Origin: an uncultured cyanobacterium
Lineage (GTDB): Bacteria > Cyanobacteriota > Cyanobacteriia > Cyanobacteriales > Chroococcidiopsidaceae
DNA length: 64,000 bases
NCBI GenBank assembly: GCA_946221495.1
Contig: CAMIFA010000005.1
Location: forward strand, 4,208 to 68,207
Direction of reading: 5' to 3'
Part shown: positions 1,267 to 26,559 of the stretch, in pieces
Layout of the letters: every line of letters starts with the position of its first letter
How positions within the stretch are numbered: position 1 is the stretch's first letter
Notes under the pieces: model-generated
Told to the model about the DNA's origin: nothing
The model's database searches: none
What the model saw: the letters and a program-made list of their open reading frames with translations, nothing else
Translations under genes and position numbers: made by a program

Positions 1267-1770
1267 TCAAATCAATTTTTTCATAATACAACTCATATTA
1301 AATATTTCAATTTTTTCAAATCCTAGTTTCTGGTACAAATGCAAAGCATTAGCATTCGTTAAACCGCAACTTAAAGAAATTTGCTGATAACCATCTAATT
1401 TTGCTTGTTTAAGCAAATACAACATTAATACCTGCCCTAATCCTTTATTTCTATATTCTGAAAGAATTGCAATTGCTATTTCCGGAGTTTCGCTATTTAT
1501 ATATCCATATCCTTTGTCATCTTCTGTAAATAGACGATACCAAGCTGCTCCAATAGGTGATTGATTATCTGTATTGGTAGCAATAAATCCTTTATCTCCC
1601 CTCCGCCCCCAATCTTGAACATATTTAGCTAGTTCATGTGTTTTCAAAATATCTCTTGAAGGTAAAACTTTTCCTTCACGTAGACAACGCGCACAACGAA
1701 TTTCATATAACATATCCCAAAGAAAGGGAACATTGATTTTACTAATAAGTTGAATTTTATAATATTCCAT
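1267..1770 (-). CDS. GNAT family N-acetyltransferase
   Basis: 167 aa. Motif EYRNKGLGQVLMLYLLKQAK typical of GNAT motif A. Confidence 0.7.
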   Translation of the reverse strand: MEYYKIQLISKINVPFLWDMLYEIRCARCLREGKVLPSRDILKTHELAKYVQDWGRRGDKGFIATNTDNQSPIGAAWYRLFTEDDKGYGYINSETPEIAIAILSEYRNKGLGQVLMLYLLKQAKLDGYQQISLSCGLTNANALHLYQKLGFEKIEIFNMSCIMKKLI

Positions 1771-1820
1771 TTATCTTAGATCATACCTATGAAAAAGGTG
1801 GGCAATGCCCACCCTACGTA

Positions 1821-3968
1821 TTATCCCTTGACACAAATAACTTGCTTGAGAGTTGCTACAACTTCAACTAAATCTGCTTGATTAGCCATGACTTGATCTA
1901 TTGGTTTATATGCGCCAGGAATTTCATCTAAAACTCCGCCATCTTTGCGGCATTCTACGCCTTTGGTTTGTTGAAGTAAATCATCTAAGGTGAACTTAAG
2001 CTTCGCCTTATTACGAGACATCAAACGCCCCGCACCATGCGAACAAGAGCAGTAACTTTCAGTATTGCCTTTACCCTTAACGATGAAAGATTTTGCTCCC
2101 ATCGAACCAGGAATAATGCCGTAGTCTTCAAGCCGCGCTCTTACTGCACCCTTACGAGTAACGTAGATATCTTCGCCAAAATGCGCTTCTTTTTCAGCAT
2201 AATTGTGATGACAGTTTACCTCTAATAAAGGCTTAGTCGGCTTACCACCAGCAAGATGCTTTTCAACTAGCCGCTTGAAACGAGCCATCATTACATCCCG
2301 ATTGAAACGCGCATAGTCTTGCGCCCACTGTAAGTCGTGCCAGTAGGCAGCAAACTGAGGCGTACCAGCTACAAAGTAAGCTAAGTCTGGATCTGGTAAA
2401 CGAATATCTGCCAGCTTTGCTAATTCTTTAGCAGTACCAATATGGCACTGAGCTAGCATATTCCCAATGTGACGTGAACCAGAGTGTAGCATCAGCCAAA
2501 CTTGATTCTCAGTATCAAGGCAAACTTCTAAAAAGTGGTTGCCCCCACCAAGTGATCCCATTTGGTTGATTGCCTTGCTTTCTAGGCGTTGTACTCCTGA
2601 ATGCAAGTCTTTAAAGTTACTCCATCTTTGCCAATTAGTAACAGCTTTTTCGACATTTTTGTTTTCATTGAATCCAGTCGGAATGGCGGCTTCAATGTCA
2701 AGACGAATCTGCTTTAGCTTACCTTCTAGTTGTTCGGCGATAAACGGGGTTTTTATGGCACTCATCCCACAGTTATGTACAAAAACACCTGCTTTTAAGG
2801 CAAAGTTATGATGCTCAGGCACAGTCAAACAATAAACATCCTCTTGATAGTCAAGAGCCACAACTTGCAATACTTTATGATTACATTTATGTTCATTTTT
2901 TTTGTGATTATGTAACCCTATGGGAGTTTTAATTTCAGCCCCACAAATATCACAGGTGTAGTATCTGTTAGCAATTTCTTTAGTTTTTGCTCTACCTTTT
3001 TCACTTTGGTTGTATGCAATTAAGTATTGTTTTCCTCGCTTACCATTATTTGCAACAGCTTGTTTAAAATGTTCAGGCTGTTCTTGCATATAGCGAAGAA
3101 TATTTTGAGTTCCACGCTCTGCGTAATATTTGTAGCCTTCTGGGGTTTGTGCTTTTTGGGCGATCGCATTTAATCGATGAAGCTCAAATTCCGGAGACTG
3201 AAAATACTGATTACGTTCTACCAGTGATTGGTGATAAGCTGAATGCTCTCTAGCACCCATAAACTCTAGGTTCTCAGGACGATTATCTGACTCTTCAAAG
3301 TTTTTGTGATGAATAACAGTTCTTTGATTCTTGAATGCGGGAACTTTGCCTAGTAAACCTGAGCGAGCTACAATCCAATGGGCTTTCTGCCATCTACTAG
3401 AGTAAGGCTGGACAATTAATGTGTAACCGTCTCTATCGACTTTGGAATAAAAGGGCATTAAAGAAGTCTCTGGTTGGAGATTTTGTGCTTCTTCATAAGT
3501 TCCATCTCTAAGTAGAAATTTGTGATCTGGAGTGCAGACAATCTCTTCACCATTGTCCAGAAATACCTTAACTAAATTTGCATTTTTTCTAGTTAATTTA
3601 GCTGTCGCTTTGGTTGCAACAATCTTGCTTGTAGCATTGCAAGCATAAACTATAAATTCTGCACTTTGATTAGCAAGTTCACTAATTTTGTAAAATTTTC
3701 CGTCTAGTAAGGGAACTAGAGTATCTCCTACAAAACAACCGACATCTACGCCGACAGCAGCTGGCATAATTGCTTCTTTCGTAGCAATTACAGAACCTAC
3801 CAAGGCTCCTTTACCCAAGTGAACATCTGGCATTAATGCTACGTGCTTAAACACAAATGGCAGAGAGGCAACATTTTTAGCCATCTTAGTTTCTTCGGAG
3901 CCAAGAGCATGATTCGCCCAAGAAAGCACCGGAGATAGTGCTGATATTTGTAGTTGTTCGTATGGCAT
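1821..3968 (-). CDS. rtcB: RNA-splicing ligase RtcB precursor containing an intein
   Basis: 715 aa. The exteins match E. coli RtcB nearly end to end (HVALMPDVHLGKGALVGSVIATKEAIMPAAVGVDVG ... CGMSAIK ... HSGSRHIGN ... SCSHGAGR ... VICVKG). The N-extein is 77 aa and the C-extein 316 aa, giving 393 aa like canonical RtcB. A 322-aa insertion separates them. Confidence 0.85.
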   Translation of the reverse strand: MPYEQLQISALSPVLSWANHALGSEETKMAKNVASLPFVFKHVALMPDVHLGKGALVGSVIATKEAIMPAAVGVDVGCFVGDTLVPLLDGKFYKISELANQSAEFIVYACNATSKIVATKATAKLTRKNANLVKVFLDNGEEIVCTPDHKFLLRDGTYEEAQNLQPETSLMPFYSKVDRDGYTLIVQPYSSRWQKAHWIVARSGLLGKVPAFKNQRTVIHHKNFEESDNRPENLEFMGAREHSAYHQSLVERNQYFQSPEFELHRLNAIAQKAQTPEGYKYYAERGTQNILRYMQEQPEHFKQAVANNGKRGKQYLIAYNQSEKGRAKTKEIANRYYTCDICGAEIKTPIGLHNHKKNEHKCNHKVLQVVALDYQEDVYCLTVPEHHNFALKAGVFVHNCGMSAIKTPFIAEQLEGKLKQIRLDIEAAIPTGFNENKNVEKAVTNWQRWSNFKDLHSGVQRLESKAINQMGSLGGGNHFLEVCLDTENQVWLMLHSGSRHIGNMLAQCHIGTAKELAKLADIRLPDPDLAYFVAGTPQFAAYWHDLQWAQDYARFNRDVMMARFKRLVEKHLAGGKPTKPLLEVNCHHNYAEKEAHFGEDIYVTRKGAVRARLEDYGIIPGSMGAKSFIVKGKGNTESYCSCSHGAGRLMSRNKAKLKFTLDDLLQQTKGVECRKDGGVLDEIPGAYKPIDQVMANQADLVEVVATLKQVICVKG
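2772..3737 (-). mobile_element. Intein inside rtcB, with an HNH-type homing endonuclease domain
   Basis: The intein begins CFVGDTLV (block A; Cys1 at nt 3737-3735) and ends VFVHN followed by +1 Cys (CGM). Internally TVIHHKNFEESDNRPENLEF...HSAYH is an HNH motif, and a Cys/His-rich segment CDICGAEIKTPIGLHNHKKNEHKCNHK follows. The insertion point is the conserved metal-ligand Cys of RtcB (GVD[V/I]G-CGM). Confidence 0.75.
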
Positions 3969-4190
3969 AATTTTTTACTTTGTGAATAGCAGTAATTAAC
4001 GTAATCGGTTTATATTACAAATATACTACAAAGTAATACGAAAGGCAAGTTGCTGAGTAATTGCGACAAGACTATCTAGGCATGATTTCAGCTCGTATAT
4101 TAAACTTTGTAAAGGAGGGGATATCAGCTTAGGTAGTCCCAACAGTGCAATCGCGTAGCGCTGCAATTAAATCAACTCAGGTAGACTCCT

Positions 4191-22455: not shown

Positions 22456-23017
22456 TAGGTGCTTATCCGACGGTAATAATAACAGTGCTGAATTTTAATC
22501 CGTCTTCTATCTTTGAGTCTACTTGAGCAAAGAAATTTTTATTAACTTATCAATCCTTCTTATTCAAGGAGCTGCTATTACTGGAGCAGACAATAAATAA
22601 ATATAAGTTTGTTGAAAATTATACTTAAAAATCTTTATAGTCAAAGATAAATGATCCTTGTTATTGATCTGATGCTTCCTTTATCAACTAAAGCTCCCAA
22701 AGAAAATTAGCGCTACTTTGCTAAGTCTCCAACCGTAATTTCACTAGAAATACTACTTAATTTTAGGTTTTTCCTTAACAAATTTAAGTAAATTTACGAT
22801 GTTGCTCAAGAGAGCTTCGTGAATTAGGCAATTTTAGTCATACATTTTATTTATTTCTACTTCAGTAACCTGCTAATATTTTTTGTTATTTAAAACACAA
22901 TTTAGCTAGTCTCAAGAAAATCTTTAATAATTCTCCTTCTGTCTCTTTTAAAAGTCTTTTTAACTAGCATTGCCAGACTACATTTGTAATCGCTATGATT
23001 ATGAGTCACGATTAAAG

Positions 23018-23031
23018 AGTACACTTGTACT
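23018..23031 (+). promoter_or_regulatory. Putative cyanobacterial LexA box AGTACACTTGTACT at the ssb promoter
   Basis: Matches the heterocystous-cyanobacterial LexA operator consensus RGTAC-N3-DGTWCB exactly. It lies 11 bp upstream of the ssb ATG. Confidence 0.5.
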
Positions 23032-23041
23032 GGAAAACACT

Positions 23042-23105
23042 TATGAGCCTCAATGTTGTAACCTTAGTCGGTCGTGTAGGCACTGATCCGGATGTGAAGT
23101 ATTTT
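23042..23105 (+). CDS. ssb: Single-stranded DNA-binding protein, exon 1 (codons 1-21 plus 1 nt)
   Basis: MSLNVVTLVGRVGTDPDVKYF is the canonical SSB N-terminus. The reading frame breaks at GTGCG (the intron 5' end). Confidence 0.8.
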
Positions 23106-25527
23106 GGTGCGACCCGTTGAGTGAGAAACCAGTCTCCCTTGAGATTGGGTACCACTCGCAAGGATAAGTAGGAATACCTACCGAACCTTGAGAACTTAGC
23201 TCCTGAGAGGGTGAGAATTTGAAGGAATGTTAAGCAAACTTGGTTTCTTAACGCAATCTTTAGATTTCAATTCCCTCCTCTTAGATGCAAGGAGATGCAA
23301 CACCCCCGTCAGTAGGACTGACTATCAATCTGGCGAAGCGGGGTGTAACGGAGGTAACTCTAAACCTGATAGAGAATCCCTCCAAGCAGAGATGGGTATG
23401 GGTAAGGATATCTAAACCTGCGTCTGAACCGTCGTCACTGACAACAGCCTACACAGGTTATTGGCTGAGCCAAAAGGCAAGGATACGGGCTAGGCAACTC
23501 GAAGTTTGACCTAGAGCATCCCCAAAGAAACCCGGCGGATAGTAGGACTCTAACCCCAATCGCAATGCAGGAGCTAGGAACGGGATAACCTCTTAATTTC
23601 TCTCGGCAAGGTCGATAACCGAGCAGGCAGTCAGCCGTATGGAATTAAGAGGAGGGATTGGCTCAGAAGCCAATGCCTTTGGGAAAGCCAAAGGATATGC
23701 TGACAGAGCCACGATAACTCAGAGATGGGTAATTCAGTAGAAGTCAAAAAGTCATGGACACGGAAAATCAACCGATGTATGAATGGAAGACAATCAACTG
23801 GGCGAAAGCTCAGCGTGAGGTCTTCAAGCTTCAAAAGAGAATCTATCGAGCCTCTGAACGTGGTGATAGAAAAGCAGTTCGCAGGCTACAAAGGCTGTTG
23901 ACTCAATCAAGGTCTGCCAAGTTGGTAGCAGTCCGAAGAGTGACCCAGGATAATCAAGGCAAAAATACGCCCGGTGTGGATAAGGTAGCCAGACTACGAA
24001 ACCCACAGAAGGTAAAAATAGCCGAGAAACTGAAGCTCAACGACAAGTCTCAACCGACCAGAAGGGTATGGATTCCTAAACCTGGCAAGGACGAGAAAAG
24101 ACCACTTGGTATTCCAACGATGGAAGATAGAGCGAAGCAAGCTTTATTGAAACTGGCATTAGAACCAGAATGGGAGGCTAAATTTGAGCCAAACAGCTAT
24201 GGTTTCAGACCAGGGCGGTCTTGTCACGACGCAATCGCGGCTATATATAACGGAATCGTCCAGAAACCGAAATATGTACTGGACGCGGACATTGAGAAGT
24301 GTTTTGACCGGATCAACCACGAAAAGCTGCTGGATAAGCTACAAACATTCCCAACATTCAGAAGACAGATCAGAGCGTGGCTTAAATCTGGAGTTATGGA
24401 TGGAAAAAAACTATTCCCGACCGATGAAGGAAGCCCACAAGGGGGGGTAATTTCTCCTCTGCTGGCGAATATAGCCCTTCATGGAATGGAAGAAATGCTA
24501 ATGGGTCGCTACTCCAGACGGGTCGAAAATGGTAGAAAGCGAAAGGTAACTTTCGTGAGATCCGCTGACGACTTCGTTCTGATGGACGAAAGCCTAGAGG
24601 TAGTGTTGGAAGCTAAACAGCTAATTGAAGAGTGGTTGATGGAAATGGGGCTAGCCCTGAAAGAATCAAAAACCCGGATTACTCACACATTTGTTGAGCA
24701 TGAAGGAAAAATAGGATTCGATTTTCTGGGGTTCCATATCCGACAATACCCATGCAGTGATAAACAAAGTGGGTCAGTCGGTGGAACCGAAAGCAAGAGA
24801 GGGCATAAGACGTTCATCAAACCCAGTAAAGAGGCTATCAAACGGCATCTAGACAAATTAGATGACCTACTAGAGAGGAATGGCAAGTCAAAACAGGAGC
24901 AAGTTATTAACGCCCTTAATCCAGTTATCCGAGGATGGGCAGCATACTACTCTACAGTGGCGAGCAGCCAGACCTTCGATCTCATCGATAGCATCATGCA
25001 CCAAAAACTCTACGCATGGGCTAAGAAGAGAAGAAGCCACAGAGGTAACAATACCGATCTCGTATCAAATTATTGGGGAGTCAACAGAGGGTTAGGCTGG
25101 CGATTTATGACTCCAGATGATCAGTATGTACTGGAGAAACACCAGGAAACTAAGATAAAGCGACACATAAAAGTGAAGGAAAGCAAAAGTCCTTTCGACG
25201 GTGAATTTATCTACTGGAGCAATCGCTTAAACAATCACCCAATGCTTCGACGCACTGTTACCAGACTACTGAAGAAGCAGGAAGGTAAATGCGGAGAATG
25301 CAGCCTGATATTAACCAGCACCGATCTCTTGGAAGTACATCACAAGGATAGAAACCGAGGGAATAACAAGCTTGACAACTTAATGCTGGTTCATAGACAC
25401 TGCCATGACATCATCCACGCAGGAGGTACTGTCACTAGCTGAGTTATTGAGGAGCCGTGTGCGGTGAAAGCTGCAAGCACGGTTCTGAAACAGAGGTAAG
25501 CAGGGTGACTTGCTTATCGACTGTAAC
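23106..25527 (+). mobile_element. Group II intron (about 2.42 kb) inserted in ssb
   Basis: 5' end GTGCGAC. Domain V GAGCCGTGTGCGGTGAAAGCTGCAAGCACGGTTC at 25452..25485. Domain VI helix with a bulged A at 25520 (8 nt from the 3' end). 3' end ...TAAC (AY). The IEP ORF lies in domain IV. Confidence 0.8.
23754..25442 (+). CDS. Group II intron-encoded protein: reverse transcriptase / maturase (X) / DNA-binding / HNH endonuclease
   Basis: 562 aa. RT blocks include the catalytic motif SADD (YADD variant) in VRSADDFVLM. A maturase X domain follows (RGWAAYY). The C-terminal HNH is CGECSLILTSTDLLEVHHKDRNRGNNKLDNLMLVHRHCHDIIH. Confidence 0.9.
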   Translation: MDTENQPMYEWKTINWAKAQREVFKLQKRIYRASERGDRKAVRRLQRLLTQSRSAKLVAVRRVTQDNQGKNTPGVDKVARLRNPQKVKIAEKLKLNDKSQPTRRVWIPKPGKDEKRPLGIPTMEDRAKQALLKLALEPEWEAKFEPNSYGFRPGRSCHDAIAAIYNGIVQKPKYVLDADIEKCFDRINHEKLLDKLQTFPTFRRQIRAWLKSGVMDGKKLFPTDEGSPQGGVISPLLANIALHGMEEMLMGRYSRRVENGRKRKVTFVRSADDFVLMDESLEVVLEAKQLIEEWLMEMGLALKESKTRITHTFVEHEGKIGFDFLGFHIRQYPCSDKQSGSVGGTESKRGHKTFIKPSKEAIKRHLDKLDDLLERNGKSKQEQVINALNPVIRGWAAYYSTVASSQTFDLIDSIMHQKLYAWAKKRRSHRGNNTDLVSNYWGVNRGLGWRFMTPDDQYVLEKHQETKIKRHIKVKESKSPFDGEFIYWSNRLNNHPMLRRTVTRLLKKQEGKCGECSLILTSTDLLEVHHKDRNRGNNKLDNLMLVHRHCHDIIHAGGTVTS

Positions 25528-25826
25528 AATCTGGTAGCGTCAAGTGTAAATTGACGCTAGCCGTAAACCGTCGTAACCGCGAGGGAGATCAAACTGACTG
25601 GTTTAATTTGGAATTATGGGGCAAGACAGCAGAGGTTGCGGCTAATTACGTGACTAAAGGCAAACAAATTGCCGTCAAAGGTTCTTTAAAGTTTGATACT
25701 TGGAGCGATCGCAATACTGGCGCAACTCGCTCTTCGCCCGTTATTCAAGTTGACAGAATGGAGCTTTTAGGCTCTAAAAAAGACACAGATGCTAGTTTCG
25801 GCAATGGGCAAGACTCAGACTTCTAG
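25528..25826 (+). CDS. ssb: Single-stranded DNA-binding protein, exon 2
   Basis: Joining exon 1 (phase 1, nt g) with AA at 25528-29 gives GAA = Glu. The product reads ...KYF-E-SGSVKCKLTLAVNRRNREGDQTDWFNLELWGKTAEVAANYVTKG...IQVDRMELLGSK, a continuous OB-fold SSB of about 120 aa. Confidence 0.8.
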
Positions 25827-25863
25827 CTAGTAAAGAAGTAGAGAATGACAGAAGACAGAAGGA

Positions 25864-25889
25864 AACCCCATAACTTAAGTTATGGGGTT
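25864..25889 (+). terminator. Perfect hairpin downstream of ssb (AACCCCATAACTT/AAGTTATGGGGTT), possible terminator
   Basis: 11-bp stem with a TTAA loop, 38 nt after the ssb stop. The T-run (ATTATTTTTCT) is about 15 nt downstream rather than adjacent, hence the moderate confidence. Confidence 0.4.
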
Positions 25890-26151
25890 CTGAGTAGGAT
25901 TAATTATTTTTCTGCTTTCCATAAATGAATATAGCAGAAGTCAAAAGTCAACGCGCTGTGTCCAAGGCATCCCGCCTTTAAAAGGCGGGATTGCCACAGC
26001 GCGCTATCTAATTCTGGCGAAGCCGCCACAGCTTTTGGAGGTTTCCTCCAAGAGAATGGCGGAGGAACCGGACTAAATCCGCGCGTCAAAAGCATGATGC
26101 TTACCCCACAACAGTTTAAGCTATTTGTGAGCGTCCTAACCTTTATGGCAG

Positions 26152-26559
26152 TTGCTATATAACTTGGAATCTACCTATGCTAAGGGACAACGATTAATAG
26201 CACTAATTTTATTAATTACTATTGCTTACACTTGTGCAATCAGGGCAGACCGTCAATATCGCCATATGGGTTTACAAAAGTATGTTGGTCGTCTCCAAGA
26301 ATTAAAGCGAGCATCGAAACGCCATAGTCCGTTTTGGGTTGGTTTATATGGTCATTTATGGGTTGGTGCAATGGAACATTGGTCAGATTTAGCACTCAGT
26401 TTGATACGTCTTAAGCCTGGCTTTACTACCTTATTTCCAACGCGGTCTACGAGCCATGCAGCTTATCCTGTCTACTGTTTAGTTCCTCTGTCACCCCGTC
26501 AGGTTATTAGGTTACGATTATTAATTTGCGTTAGAGGTATCAGTGCTGATAATAGTTGA
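26152..26559 (+). CDS. Hypothetical ORF (doubtful; possible IS remnant)
   Basis: 135-aa ORF with a hydrophobic N-terminus, no motifs recognised, in a hairpin-rich gap. Could be non-coding. Confidence 0.2.
   Translation: MLYNLESTYAKGQRLIALILLITIAYTCAIRADRQYRHMGLQKYVGRLQELKRASKRHSPFWVGLYGHLWVGAMEHWSDLALSLIRLKPGFTTLFPTRSTSHAAYPVYCLVPLSPRQVIRLRLLICVRGISADNS

What the first reader, a model, noticed from the sequence alone, without database searches (positions are those of the whole stretch)
23042..25826. Essential ssb gene is split by a mobile group II intron (RT-maturase-HNH); splice junction reconstructed
Exon 1 is 23042-23105 (MSLNVVTLVGRVGTDPDVKYF + g). The intron is 23106-25527, starting GTGCGAC and ending AAC, with domain V at 25452-25485 and a bulged A at 25520. 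Exon 2 starts at 25528; joining gives GAA (E) and the sequence ...KYFESGSVKCKLTLAVNRR... This matches the SSB of heterocystous cyanobacteria and yields an uninterrupted 120-aa OB-fold protein. Bacterial group II introns usually avoid housekeeping ORFs. An intron in ssb, downstream of a LexA box, makes SSB production depend on splicing.
Basis: partly seen in the sequence, partly recalled or inferred. Interest (0 to 1): 0.75.

Follow-up and report, generated by a model that had tools for sequence, protein, structure and literature searches.

The report
Group II intron splitting cyanobacterial ssb
A self-splicing mobile intron really does split the short single-strand-DNA-binding gene of this cyanobacterium; it belongs to a family of introns that always sits at this one spot in ssb across many cyanobacteria, which makes it a new example of a known kind, not a new kind.

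Summary
The ssb ATG is at 23043. Exon 1 is 23043-23106, the intron 23107-25527 (2421 nt, GUGCG...AC) and exon 2 25528-25826. Joining the exons gives a 363-nt ORF and a 120-aa full-length SSB domain, with the junction KYF|ESGSVKC exactly as in intron-less homologues.

The intron has a domain V/VI match in Rfam, a bulged A at 25520 and a 562-aa RT-maturase-HNH ORF. DI-DIII are supported by 54 compensatory base pairs among 13 relatives.

New here: the intron belongs to a discrete protein clade (69-93% identity). Every member I could read, about 20 ssb alleles from several cyanobacterial orders, sits at the same codon-22 site. Intron and host phylogenies disagree (IEP 98% against SSB 48%), so the family moves horizontally.

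The window copy alone carries SADD instead of YADD and has weak EBS2-IBS2 pairing, so it may no longer be mobile.

"Essential" is overstated. This is the Alr0088-type short SSB, and Anabaena has another, typical SSB (All4779). The LexA box is real by consensus and by conserved position.

Introns in conserved cyanobacterial genes are already known. Verdict: a new member of a known kind, of moderate interest.

The parts
22970..22999 (+). Promoter-like site (TTGCCA, 18 nt, TATGAT) upstream of ssb
   Evidence: Consensus scan: 10 of 12 matches, but the number of sites in the region is not above the shuffle expectation. Weak evidence.
23018..23031 (.). LexA-box-like palindrome AGTACACTTGTACT, 25 nt upstream of the ssb ATG
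   Evidence: The only match to RGTACNNNDGTWCB in the whole window. The same motif lies at -21 to -31 upstream of ssb in L004, L009, L011, L083 and the intron-less L092. A box AGTACTTATGTACT is predicted at alr0088 in PMC3091678.
23043..23106 (+). ssb exon 1 (MSLNVVTLVGRVGTDPDVKYF plus the first base of Glu22). IBS1 = ATTTTG (23101-23106); IBS2 region = GTGAA (23094-23098)
23107..25527 (+). Group II intron, 2421 nt, 5' GUGCGAC ... 3' CUGUAAC
   Evidence: The identical 2421 nt are present in two other assemblies, L001 and L002.
23113..23584 (+). Intron domain I
   Evidence: RNAalifold consensus of 13 ssb-site introns. Closing helix cols 7-12/483-488, with UA to CG double changes in 5-6 sequences. 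Coordinates mapped.
23438..23442 (+). EBS2 (CUGAC) in the register used by relatives. It pairs poorly with this exon (3 of 5); an alternative register CGUCAC (23432-23437) gives 5 of 6
   Evidence: Cognate EBS2/IBS2 helices score better than non-cognate ones across the family (Mann-Whitney p=0.002).
23500..23505 (+). EBS1 (CGAAGU) in the terminal loop of stem 23490-23514. It pairs with IBS1 AUUUUG over 6 bp, two of them G.U
23589..23652 (+). Intron domain II
   Evidence: cols 493-563, many compensatory pairs.
23659..23711 (+). Intron domain III
   Evidence: cols 570-622.
23754..25442 (+). Intron-encoded protein ORF in domain IV (562 aa plus stop): RVT_N, RT, maturase (GIIM) and HNH
   Evidence: Pfam. 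Best solved structure is 6ME0_C, the T.el4h maturase-RT, E=1e-104 over the full length.
24561..24572 (+). RT active-site motif reads SADD (TCC GCT GAC GAC) instead of YADD
   Evidence: Tyr in 24 of 24 clade members and 82 of 83 outgroup IEPs. The change is present in independent assemblies L001 and L002.
25290..25421 (+). HNH (En) domain of the IEP (aa 513-556; CxxC...EVHH...N...HRHCH)
   Evidence: Pfam PF01844, E=2.3e-4, 21.7 bits against a cut-off of 21.4.
25452..25485 (+). Domain V (AGC triad, GAAA loop, 2-nt bulge)
   Evidence: Rfam RF00029; fold.
25490..25524 (+). Domain VI, with the bulged branch-point A at 25520
   Evidence: Rfam alignment; fold.
25528..25826 (+). ssb exon 2 (last two bases of Glu22 through F120, plus TAG)
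25863..25890 (.). 12-bp palindromic hairpin downstream of ssb (possible terminator)
   Evidence: It was called on the minus strand; there is no T-run on the plus strand, so its role for ssb is uncertain.

Best explanation
A chloroplast-like (IIB-type) group II intron, 2421 nt long, interrupts codon 22 (Glu, phase 1) of the short Alr0088-type ssb gene of a Nostocales-like cyanobacterium.

Proposed mechanism. Transcription from the ssb promoter, which carries a LexA-type operator, yields a pre-mRNA. In that pre-mRNA, translation of exon 1 stops 4 codons into the intron. The 562-aa RT-maturase-HNH protein encoded in domain IV is inferred to bind the intron and help it fold. EBS1 (CGAAGU) and, weakly, EBS2 hold the 5' exon. 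The bulged A25520 of domain VI attacks the 5' splice site, the intron leaves as a lariat, and the exons are joined to restore GAA and a 120-aa SSB.

The intron belongs to a discrete clade that homes to exactly this ssb site and moves horizontally among cyanobacterial orders. Its EBS1 places G opposite the third positions of the Tyr and Phe codons, so it can pair with every synonymous version of the target.

The copy in this window carries YADD changed to SADD and has poor EBS2-IBS2 complementarity. It is probably impaired for retrohoming while still able to splice.

Shown here: the anatomy, the junction, the family, the site specificity, the covariation, and the incongruence between intron and host.
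Inferred: splicing in vivo, LexA control, and loss of mobility.
For: Junction and domains.

Empty site: an intron-less orthologue in the same mreDCB-ssb synteny, with the same LexA box, aligns straight across the insertion point (L092).

Clade: about 31 protein clusters at 69-93% identity, then a gap to 63% or less.

Site specificity: the same insertion site TAYTTYG|GTGCGAY...TAAY|AR is found in L003-L012, L014, L083-L091 and L095-L100.

RNA structure: 148 predicted pairs in DI-DIII, 54 of them with compensatory double changes.

Exon binding: cognate EBS2/IBS2 pairings are better than non-cognate ones (p=0.002). The EBS1 variants CGAAGU and CGAAAU are complementary to A[C/U]UU[C/U]G.

Host gene under selection: spliced ORFs are intact in every host. 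dN/dS is 0.06-0.19, including 0.07 for L009 against L012, which both carry the intron.

Horizontal movement: the Hydrococcus and Tolypothrix IEPs are 97.9% identical while their SSBs are 47.7% identical. Across all pairs r=0.19.

SADD: unique among 108 IEPs compared.

Precedent: TeI4h lies in an essential tRNA gene and has a natural YAGD; restoring YADD raises mobility about 1e5-fold (PMC2882425).
Against: - There are no RNA data, so splicing of this copy is not demonstrated.
- EBS2-IBS2 is weak here (3 of 5 in the family register) and EBS1-IBS1 includes two G.U pairs, so splicing could be inefficient.
- The SD-like motif before the IEP start is GAAG, where 12 relatives have GAGG, GGAG or AAGG.
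- The effect of Tyr to Ser in YADD on RT activity is inferred, not measured.
- Rfam's D1-D4 models gave no hit, so the subclass (CL1 or CL2) is not assigned.
- EBS3 and the delta-delta' interaction were not located.
- LexA binding is not tested, and several intron-bearing ssb loci lack the box.
Confidence: 0.85

Rival explanations
1. The insertion has inactivated this ssb copy. The intron does not splice usefully, and the cell relies on another SSB (All4779-type), so the locus is a young pseudogene.
For: - Anabaena has a second, typical SSB, and both types are reported across cyanobacteria (PMC3976300).
- In this copy EBS2-IBS2 is weak, the RT motif is mutated and the IEP SD-like motif is weakened.
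- The dN/dS between the window and L092 mostly reflects history before the insertion.
Against: - Both exons are intact and in frame.
- The catalytic elements are canonical: GUGCG, the DV AGC triad with GAAA loop, and the DVI bulged A.
- The IEP ORF is full length.
- About 20 other intron-bearing ssb alleles all keep intact ORFs. dN/dS is 0.07 for a pair that both carry the intron, and EBS2 covaries with the exon.
- The short ssb is present in all cyanobacteria surveyed (PMC5101192).
Confidence: 0.07
2. The intron is an ancient resident of ssb, inherited vertically like organellar introns, and not a mobile element that homes to the site.
For: - The position is identical in many orders.
- Some members have truncated IEPs without the C-terminal domain (470-513 aa).
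- This copy has SADD.
Against: - Most cyanobacterial ssb genes, including close relatives, lack the intron.
- IEP identity does not track SSB identity: 97.9% against 47.7%, 98.8% against 87%, and 93% IEP with 15 of 21 exon-1 residues; r=0.19.
- Most members keep YADD and HNH motifs.
Confidence: 0.05
3. The intron is used by the host or by itself as a regulatory device. LexA-controlled transcription times the production of intron RNP and SSB to DNA damage (the 'hijacking' idea), and splicing sets SSB dosage.
For: - A positionally conserved LexA box lies upstream.
- Group II introns are enriched next to replication/repair genes, ssDNA-binding genes among them (PMC7306698).
- A recA intron precedent, Chee and Takami 2005, is cited there.
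Against: - There are no expression data.
- Seven of the intron-bearing ssb loci examined have no recognisable LexA box.
- A target site in a conserved gene is enough to explain persistence without any regulatory role.
Confidence: 0.15

Closest known systems
T.el4h (TeI4h) group IIB intron of Thermosynechococcus elongatus (PDB 6ME0; Mohr et al. 2010, PMC2882425)
   Same: - Its IEP is the best solved-structure match (E=1e-104, full length).
- It is cyanobacterial and has RT, maturase and En domains.
- It sits inside a putatively essential single-copy gene (tRNA-Ile CAU).
- It has a naturally degenerate RT active site (YAGD), and related T. elongatus introns form twintrons at the start of the IEP ORF, as L009 does here.
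   Different: - The host gene is a tRNA, not a protein-coding ssb.
- TeI4h starts with U, this intron with the canonical G.
- The T. elongatus introns proliferated within one genome to many sites, whereas this clade keeps one site across many genomes.
- The mutation is in a different residue (D to G there, Y to S here).
Group II introns resident in conserved genes of cyanobacteria (CL lineage), as summarised by Zimmerly and Semper 2015 (PMC4424553). The Trichodesmium dnaN and ribonucleotide-reductase introns are recalled from memory and were not checked here.
   Same: - Chloroplast-like introns inside housekeeping ORFs that must splice.
- Multi-intron genes, ORF-less or degenerate partner introns, and twintrons. 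All of these occur in the ssb genes of relatives.
   Different: ssb as the host gene, and a clade dedicated to one ssb codon, were not found in the papers searched.
recA group II intron of Geobacillus kaustophilus (Chee and Takami 2005; cited in PMC7306698)
   Same: A group II intron inside a DNA-repair/SOS-type housekeeping gene.
   Different: A different phylum and host gene, and presumably a different intron class. I did not read the paper, only its citation.
Alr0088 of Anabaena sp. PCC 7120 (short SSB; Kirti et al., PMC3976300)
   Same: - About 120 aa (Alr0088 is 119 aa).
- An OB fold followed by a short tail.
- The gene neighbours mreB (alr0088 and all0087 primers in PMC7593598).
- A LexA box is predicted just upstream.
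   Different: alr0088 is not reported to have an intron. The window protein is 72-81% identical to the Nostoc-type 119-120-aa SSBs. I did not have the Alr0088 sequence itself for an alignment.

Membership tests
Group II intron (ribozyme) | 5' boundary GUGYG and 3' boundary AY | tested here: met
   GUGCG at 23107-23111...UAAC ends at 25527.
Group II intron (ribozyme) | Domain V: a ~34-nt hairpin with the AGC triad, a 2-nt bulge and a GNRA loop | tested here: met
   RF00029, 61.3 bits against a gathering score of 40. The fold shows a 15+5/10 helix with a GAAA loop and a 2-nt bulge.
Group II intron (ribozyme) | Domain VI with a bulged branch-point A 7-8 nt from the 3' splice site | tested here: met
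   A25520 is unpaired both in the Rfam alignment and in the MFE fold, 7 nt upstream of the 3' splice site.
Group II intron (ribozyme) | Domains I-III supported by covariation | tested here: met
   13 homologous introns: 148 pairs, 54 with compensatory double changes, covariation term -17.3 kcal/mol. No Rfam D1-D4 model matched.
Group II intron (ribozyme) | EBS1-IBS1 and EBS2-IBS2 pairings with the 5' exon | tested here: inconclusive
   EBS1 CGAAGU against AUUUUG gives 6 bp including 2 G.U. EBS2 in the family register pairs at only 3 of 5 positions in the window, but forms 5-7 bp in most relatives and covaries with the exon. EBS3/IBS3 was not located.
Group II intron (ribozyme) | Splicing through a lariat, in vivo or in vitro | not testable with these tools
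   Needs RT-PCR or RNA-seq.
Mobile group II intron IEP (RT-maturase-D-En) | RT domain, X/maturase domain and HNH endonuclease domain, encoded in domain IV | tested here: met
   RVT_N, RVT_1, GIIM and HNH (the HNH match is just above its cut-off). Full-length match to the T.el4h maturase-RT.
Mobile group II intron IEP (RT-maturase-D-En) | Intact YADD catalytic motif in the RT | tested here: not met
   SADD at aa 270-273. Y in 24 of 24 clade members and 82 of 83 outgroup relatives.
Mobile group II intron IEP (RT-maturase-D-En) | Site-specific retrohoming | not testable with these tools
   Inferred for the family from identical insertion sites and the incongruence between IEP and host. Doubtful for this copy.
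Bacterial SSB (PF00436) | Complete OB-fold SSB domain | tested here: met
   The spliced product matches 1-104 of 104 profile positions, E=3e-28.
Bacterial SSB (PF00436) | Long Pro/Gly-rich linker and acidic C-terminal tip, as in a typical E. coli-type SSB | tested here: not met
   Only about 18 residues follow the OB fold. The protein ends ...GQDSDF, and a terminal F preceded by acidic residues is conserved in the family. Kirti et al. class Alr0088 as truncated.
Bacterial SSB (PF00436) | Essentiality of this copy | not testable with these tools
   No second SSB lies in the 64-kb window, and the rest of the genome is not available. The literature points to a second, typical SSB in cyanobacteria.
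Cyanobacterial LexA regulon | Operator RGTACNNNDGTWCB near the promoter | tested here: met
   A single match in the window, at -25. It is conserved at the same position in 5 related loci and is similar to the predicted alr0088 box.
Cyanobacterial LexA regulon | LexA binding and damage-dependent expression | not testable with these tools
   Needs EMSA or expression data.

The most novel reading that the evidence does not exclude
The ssb-site clade is a specialised 'SOS-timed' retroelement. By living inside a LexA-controlled ssDNA-binding gene and using a wobble-tolerant EBS1, it is expressed just when ssDNA targets are exposed, and it can home into any synonymous version of ssb across cyanobacteria. 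The window copy (SADD, weak EBS2, weakened IEP ribosome-binding motif) would then be a bacterial intron caught turning from a mobile element into a splicing-only resident that gates SSB dosage, the same path organellar introns took.
Probability: 0.15. Interest if true: 0.6.

Novelty: new member of a known kind. Interest (0 to 1): 0.4.

Why it matters
Annotation. Gene callers report only a 91-aa 5'-truncated SSB here (P0080). The correct product is a 120-aa protein from two exons. The same error recurs in Tolypothrix, Planktothrix, Laspinema and other genomes.

Biology. The locus belongs to a compact natural system with several useful properties:
- one intron clade and one conserved target codon;
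- many hosts, with clear horizontal movement;
- an exon-binding site that tolerates synonymous variation in the target;
- companion introns at two further Glu codons of the same small gene;
- at least one twintron;
- a natural RT active-site variant.

That makes it a convenient model for studying how group II introns settle in conserved bacterial genes and lose mobility, and for testing whether placement in SOS or ssDNA-related genes serves the intron. It does not change what is known about the kinds of systems that exist.

Tried and rejected
- Rfam at the permissive threshold on 22900-25900 found only DV/DVI models and no group-II D1-D4 family. I therefore could not assign CL1 or CL2 from Rfam and relied on the T.el4h match and on covariation.
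- A viral-contig scan with the exon-intron junction pattern gave one hit (L094). It has no SSB, no IEP and no similarity to the intron, so it is a chance match. There is no evidence for phage carriage.
- Literature searches for an ssb group II intron found nothing specific. PMC6662634 is not held.
- Naming the organism failed. Exact-sequence look-ups returned members without names, and the window genome is not among the GTDB representatives hit by the IEP scan. I ran no further search on it.
- I looked for a second SSB or a second intron copy in the window and found none.
- I considered that SADD might be an assembly error. I rejected this because the identical protein is on record from NCBI, ENA and Logan assemblies, and L001 and L002 carry the identical 2421-nt intron.
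- My first candidate for EBS1, the invariant CCAAAAGG, was rejected. It cannot pair with the UUUCG exons, whereas the loop sequence CGAAGU/CGAAAU can.
Full report
**1. What is in the sequence**

Exon 1 is 23043-23106 (64 nt, ending TAT TTT G). The intervening sequence is 23107-25527 (2421 nt), beginning GTGCGAC and ending CTGTAAC. Exon 2 is 25528-25826.

Joining the exons restores a GAA codon and gives a 363-nt ORF for a 120-aa protein. That protein matches the Pfam SSB domain over its entire length (E=3e-28). In an alignment with 14 homologues, the junction sequence KYF|ESGSVKC is the conserved sequence of uninterrupted ~120-aa cyanobacterial SSBs.

An intron-less orthologue (L092, 85% identical protein) lies in the same mreD-mreC-mreB / ssb arrangement. 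It aligns straight through the insertion point at the DNA level.

**2. The intervening sequence is a group II intron**

- Rfam's group II model (domains V and VI) matches 25450-25527 at 61.3 bits, against a gathering score of 40.
- The fold of 25444-25527 shows a domain V hairpin with the AGC triad, a GAAA loop and a 2-nt bulge. It also shows a domain VI helix in which A25520 is unpaired, 7 nt upstream of the 3' splice site (z=-7.2).
- The 562-aa ORF at 23754-25442 has RVT_N, RT, maturase (GIIM) and HNH domains. The HNH match is only just above its cut-off.
- The closest solved structure is the maturase-RT of the Thermosynechococcus IIB intron T.el4h (6ME0, E=1e-104 over the full length).
- Rfam's D1-D4 models do not match. 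However, an RNAalifold consensus of 13 homologous introns gives domains I (23113-23584), II (23589-23652) and III (23659-23711). It has 148 pairs, 54 of which show compensatory double changes.

**3. It is one member of an ssb-specific intron family**

A scan of one genome per species with the IEP found its closest relatives (71-80% protein identity; intron DNA 71-78% identical over the whole 2.4 kb) in Symploca, Coleofasciculaceae, Oscillatoria, Snowella, Phormidium, Aerosakkonema, Floridaenema and Hydrococcus. Every one whose flanks could be read is inserted after TAYTTYG in codon 22 of an ssb gene.

The large protein search shows about 31 clusters at 69-93% identity, followed by a gap to 63% or less. 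Further members that I looked up are at the same site: Tolypothrix (again beside mreBCD), Planktothrix serta, Laspinema, an unnamed 93% relative, and six metagenome contigs. The next tier of relatives (52-58%) is not in this site.

After intron removal every host gene gives an intact ~120-aa ORF. dN/dS is 0.06-0.19, including 0.07 for a pair that both carry the intron. These genes are therefore maintained by selection, which implies that the introns splice.

**4. How the family recognises its target**

EBS1 is CGAAGU (23500-23505) or CGAAAU, in the terminal loop of a conserved stem. CGAAGU is perfectly complementary to ACUUCG (seen in L091 and L095). Through G.U pairs it is also compatible with every synonymous Tyr-Phe combination A[C/U]UU[C/U]G. 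In the window it forms 6 bp with two G.U pairs.

EBS2 (window 23438-23442) covaries with the exon at -13 to -9 in relatives: CUGAC/GUCAG, CUUAC/GUAAG, UUGAC/GUCAA, CGGAC/GUCCG, UUAAC/GUUAA. Cognate pairings score better than non-cognate ones (Mann-Whitney p=0.002). In the window the pairing is poor (3 of 5). Its EBS2 would fit a GTC-AAR exon better than the GTG-AAG that is present.

**5. Mobile or inherited?**

IEP identity does not follow host SSB identity:
- Hydrococcus against Tolypothrix: IEP 97.9%, SSB 47.7%.
- Oscillatoria against Laspinema: IEP 98.8%, SSB 87%.
- The 93% relative of the window IEP sits in an ssb whose exon 1 matches only 15 of 21 residues.
- Over all pairs, r=0.19.

Most cyanobacterial ssb genes are uninterrupted. 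The family therefore spreads horizontally by homing to this conserved site, and is not simply an ancient resident.

**6. Peculiarities of the copy in the window**

Its RT active site reads SADD (24561-24572). All 24 clade members have Tyr at that position, as do 82 of 83 outgroup proteins, with the remaining one Phe in the locus-derived set. The 93% relatives have YADD.

The identical sequence is present in two other assemblies, so this is not a read error.

In T.el4h a natural YAGD lowers mobility about 1e5-fold relative to YADD, yet the intron persists in a putatively essential tRNA gene (PMC2882425). By analogy, and as an inference only, this copy is probably a poor retrohomer while its maturase function may be unaffected. 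The weak EBS2 pairing and a weakened SD-like motif before the IEP start (GAAG, against GAGG/GGAG/AAGG in 12 relatives) point the same way.

**7. The host gene and its control**

The product is of the short Alr0088 type:
- Alr0088 is 119 aa.
- Primer names in an Anabaena mre study place alr0088 beside mreB (all0087).
- A LexA box is predicted 16 nt upstream of alr0088.

Kirti et al. argue that All4779, not Alr0088, is the typical major SSB of Anabaena, and state that homologues of both types occur across cyanobacteria. Another survey lists the short ssb among core genes present in all cyanobacteria. 'Essential' is thus plausible but unproven. The window holds no second SSB.

The box AGTACACTTGTACT (23018-23031) is the only match to the cyanobacterial LexA consensus in 64 kb. 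The same motif lies at -21 to -31 in five related ssb loci, one of them intron-less, though seven intron-bearing loci lack it. A promoter-like TTGCCA-18-TATGAT lies just upstream, but this is weak evidence.

In unspliced RNA the exon 1 frame stops at TGA 23118-23120, so full-length SSB requires splicing.

**8. Comparison with what is known**

A genome-neighbourhood survey lists ssDNA-binding proteins among the replication/repair genes found next to group II introns and proposes a 'hijacking' strategy. It also cites a recA intron in Geobacillus (PMC7306698).

I found no paper that describes an ssb intron or this clade. The finding is therefore a new member of a known kind. The family-level features (one codon, many hosts, a wobble-tolerant EBS1) appear to be undescribed.

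**9. Verdict**

- Observation: confirmed, with a one-base correction.
- Interpretation: partly supported.
- Mechanism: ordinary IEP-assisted group II splicing of a homing intron, with signs that this copy is losing mobility.
- Interest: moderate.

Noticed in passing
window 1821-3968 (- strand): A 715-aa ORF matches NCBIfam NF052663, 'intein-containing RtcB family protein' (1272 bits, cut-off 1050), with intein N- and C-terminal splicing regions. This is a second self-splicing element in the same window.
   Followed up: no
window 26152-26559 (+ strand): A 135-aa ORF just downstream of ssb weakly matches the C-terminal part of IS4-family transposases (E=6e-6). The intron-less and Tolypothrix relatives have a SIMPL-domain gene at this position instead.
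   Followed up: partly
L006 5865-7254; L007 from 5862; L008 2268-4666; L090 5865-7332; L013 from 3388: A second group II intron in the same small ssb gene, at codon Glu50 (...TTA G|GTGYGA...GTAAC|AA ATC TGG). In L006 and L090 it is short (about 1.4 kb) with only a degenerate RT remnant, so it may depend on the site-1 IEP in trans.
   Followed up: partly
L004 5886-8243: A third ssb insertion site at codon Glu57 (GCG G|GTGCGA...CGAAC|AA GTG), with its own 587-aa IEP (51% identical). All three ssb sites are phase 1 within a GAR Glu codon.
   Followed up: partly
L009 906-5696 (Phormidium sp. R1S1, CP143273.1): A twintron in ssb. An inner group II intron (1640-4004) with its own 600-aa IEP (38% identical) interrupts the outer intron's IEP ORF at about residue 29. 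This resembles the T. elongatus twintrons.
   Followed up: partly
window 23737-23753 and alignment A2 columns ~770-790: The SD-like motif upstream of the IEP start codon is GAAG in the window, but GAGG, GGAG or AAGG in all 12 aligned relatives.
   Followed up: no
window 23118-23120 and the same position in L003-L090: The exon 1 reading frame always ends 4 codons into the intron, at TGA or, in L007 and L089, at TAA. The stop is kept even where the base changes together with its pairing partner.
   Followed up: no
window 25809-25823 (C-terminus of the spliced SSB) and alignment A1: The 'truncated' short SSBs end in acidic residues followed by an almost invariant terminal Phe (DSDF, PEHF, PENF, DTEF, NDEF). 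This is reminiscent of the DDDIPF tip of typical SSBs, so they may not be entirely tail-less.
   Followed up: no
P0080; L001 6001-6276; L083 5801-6076: Public gene calls at intron-bearing loci report only a 91-aa protein with a TTG start, taken from exon 2. This is a systematic mis-annotation of ssb.
   Followed up: yes
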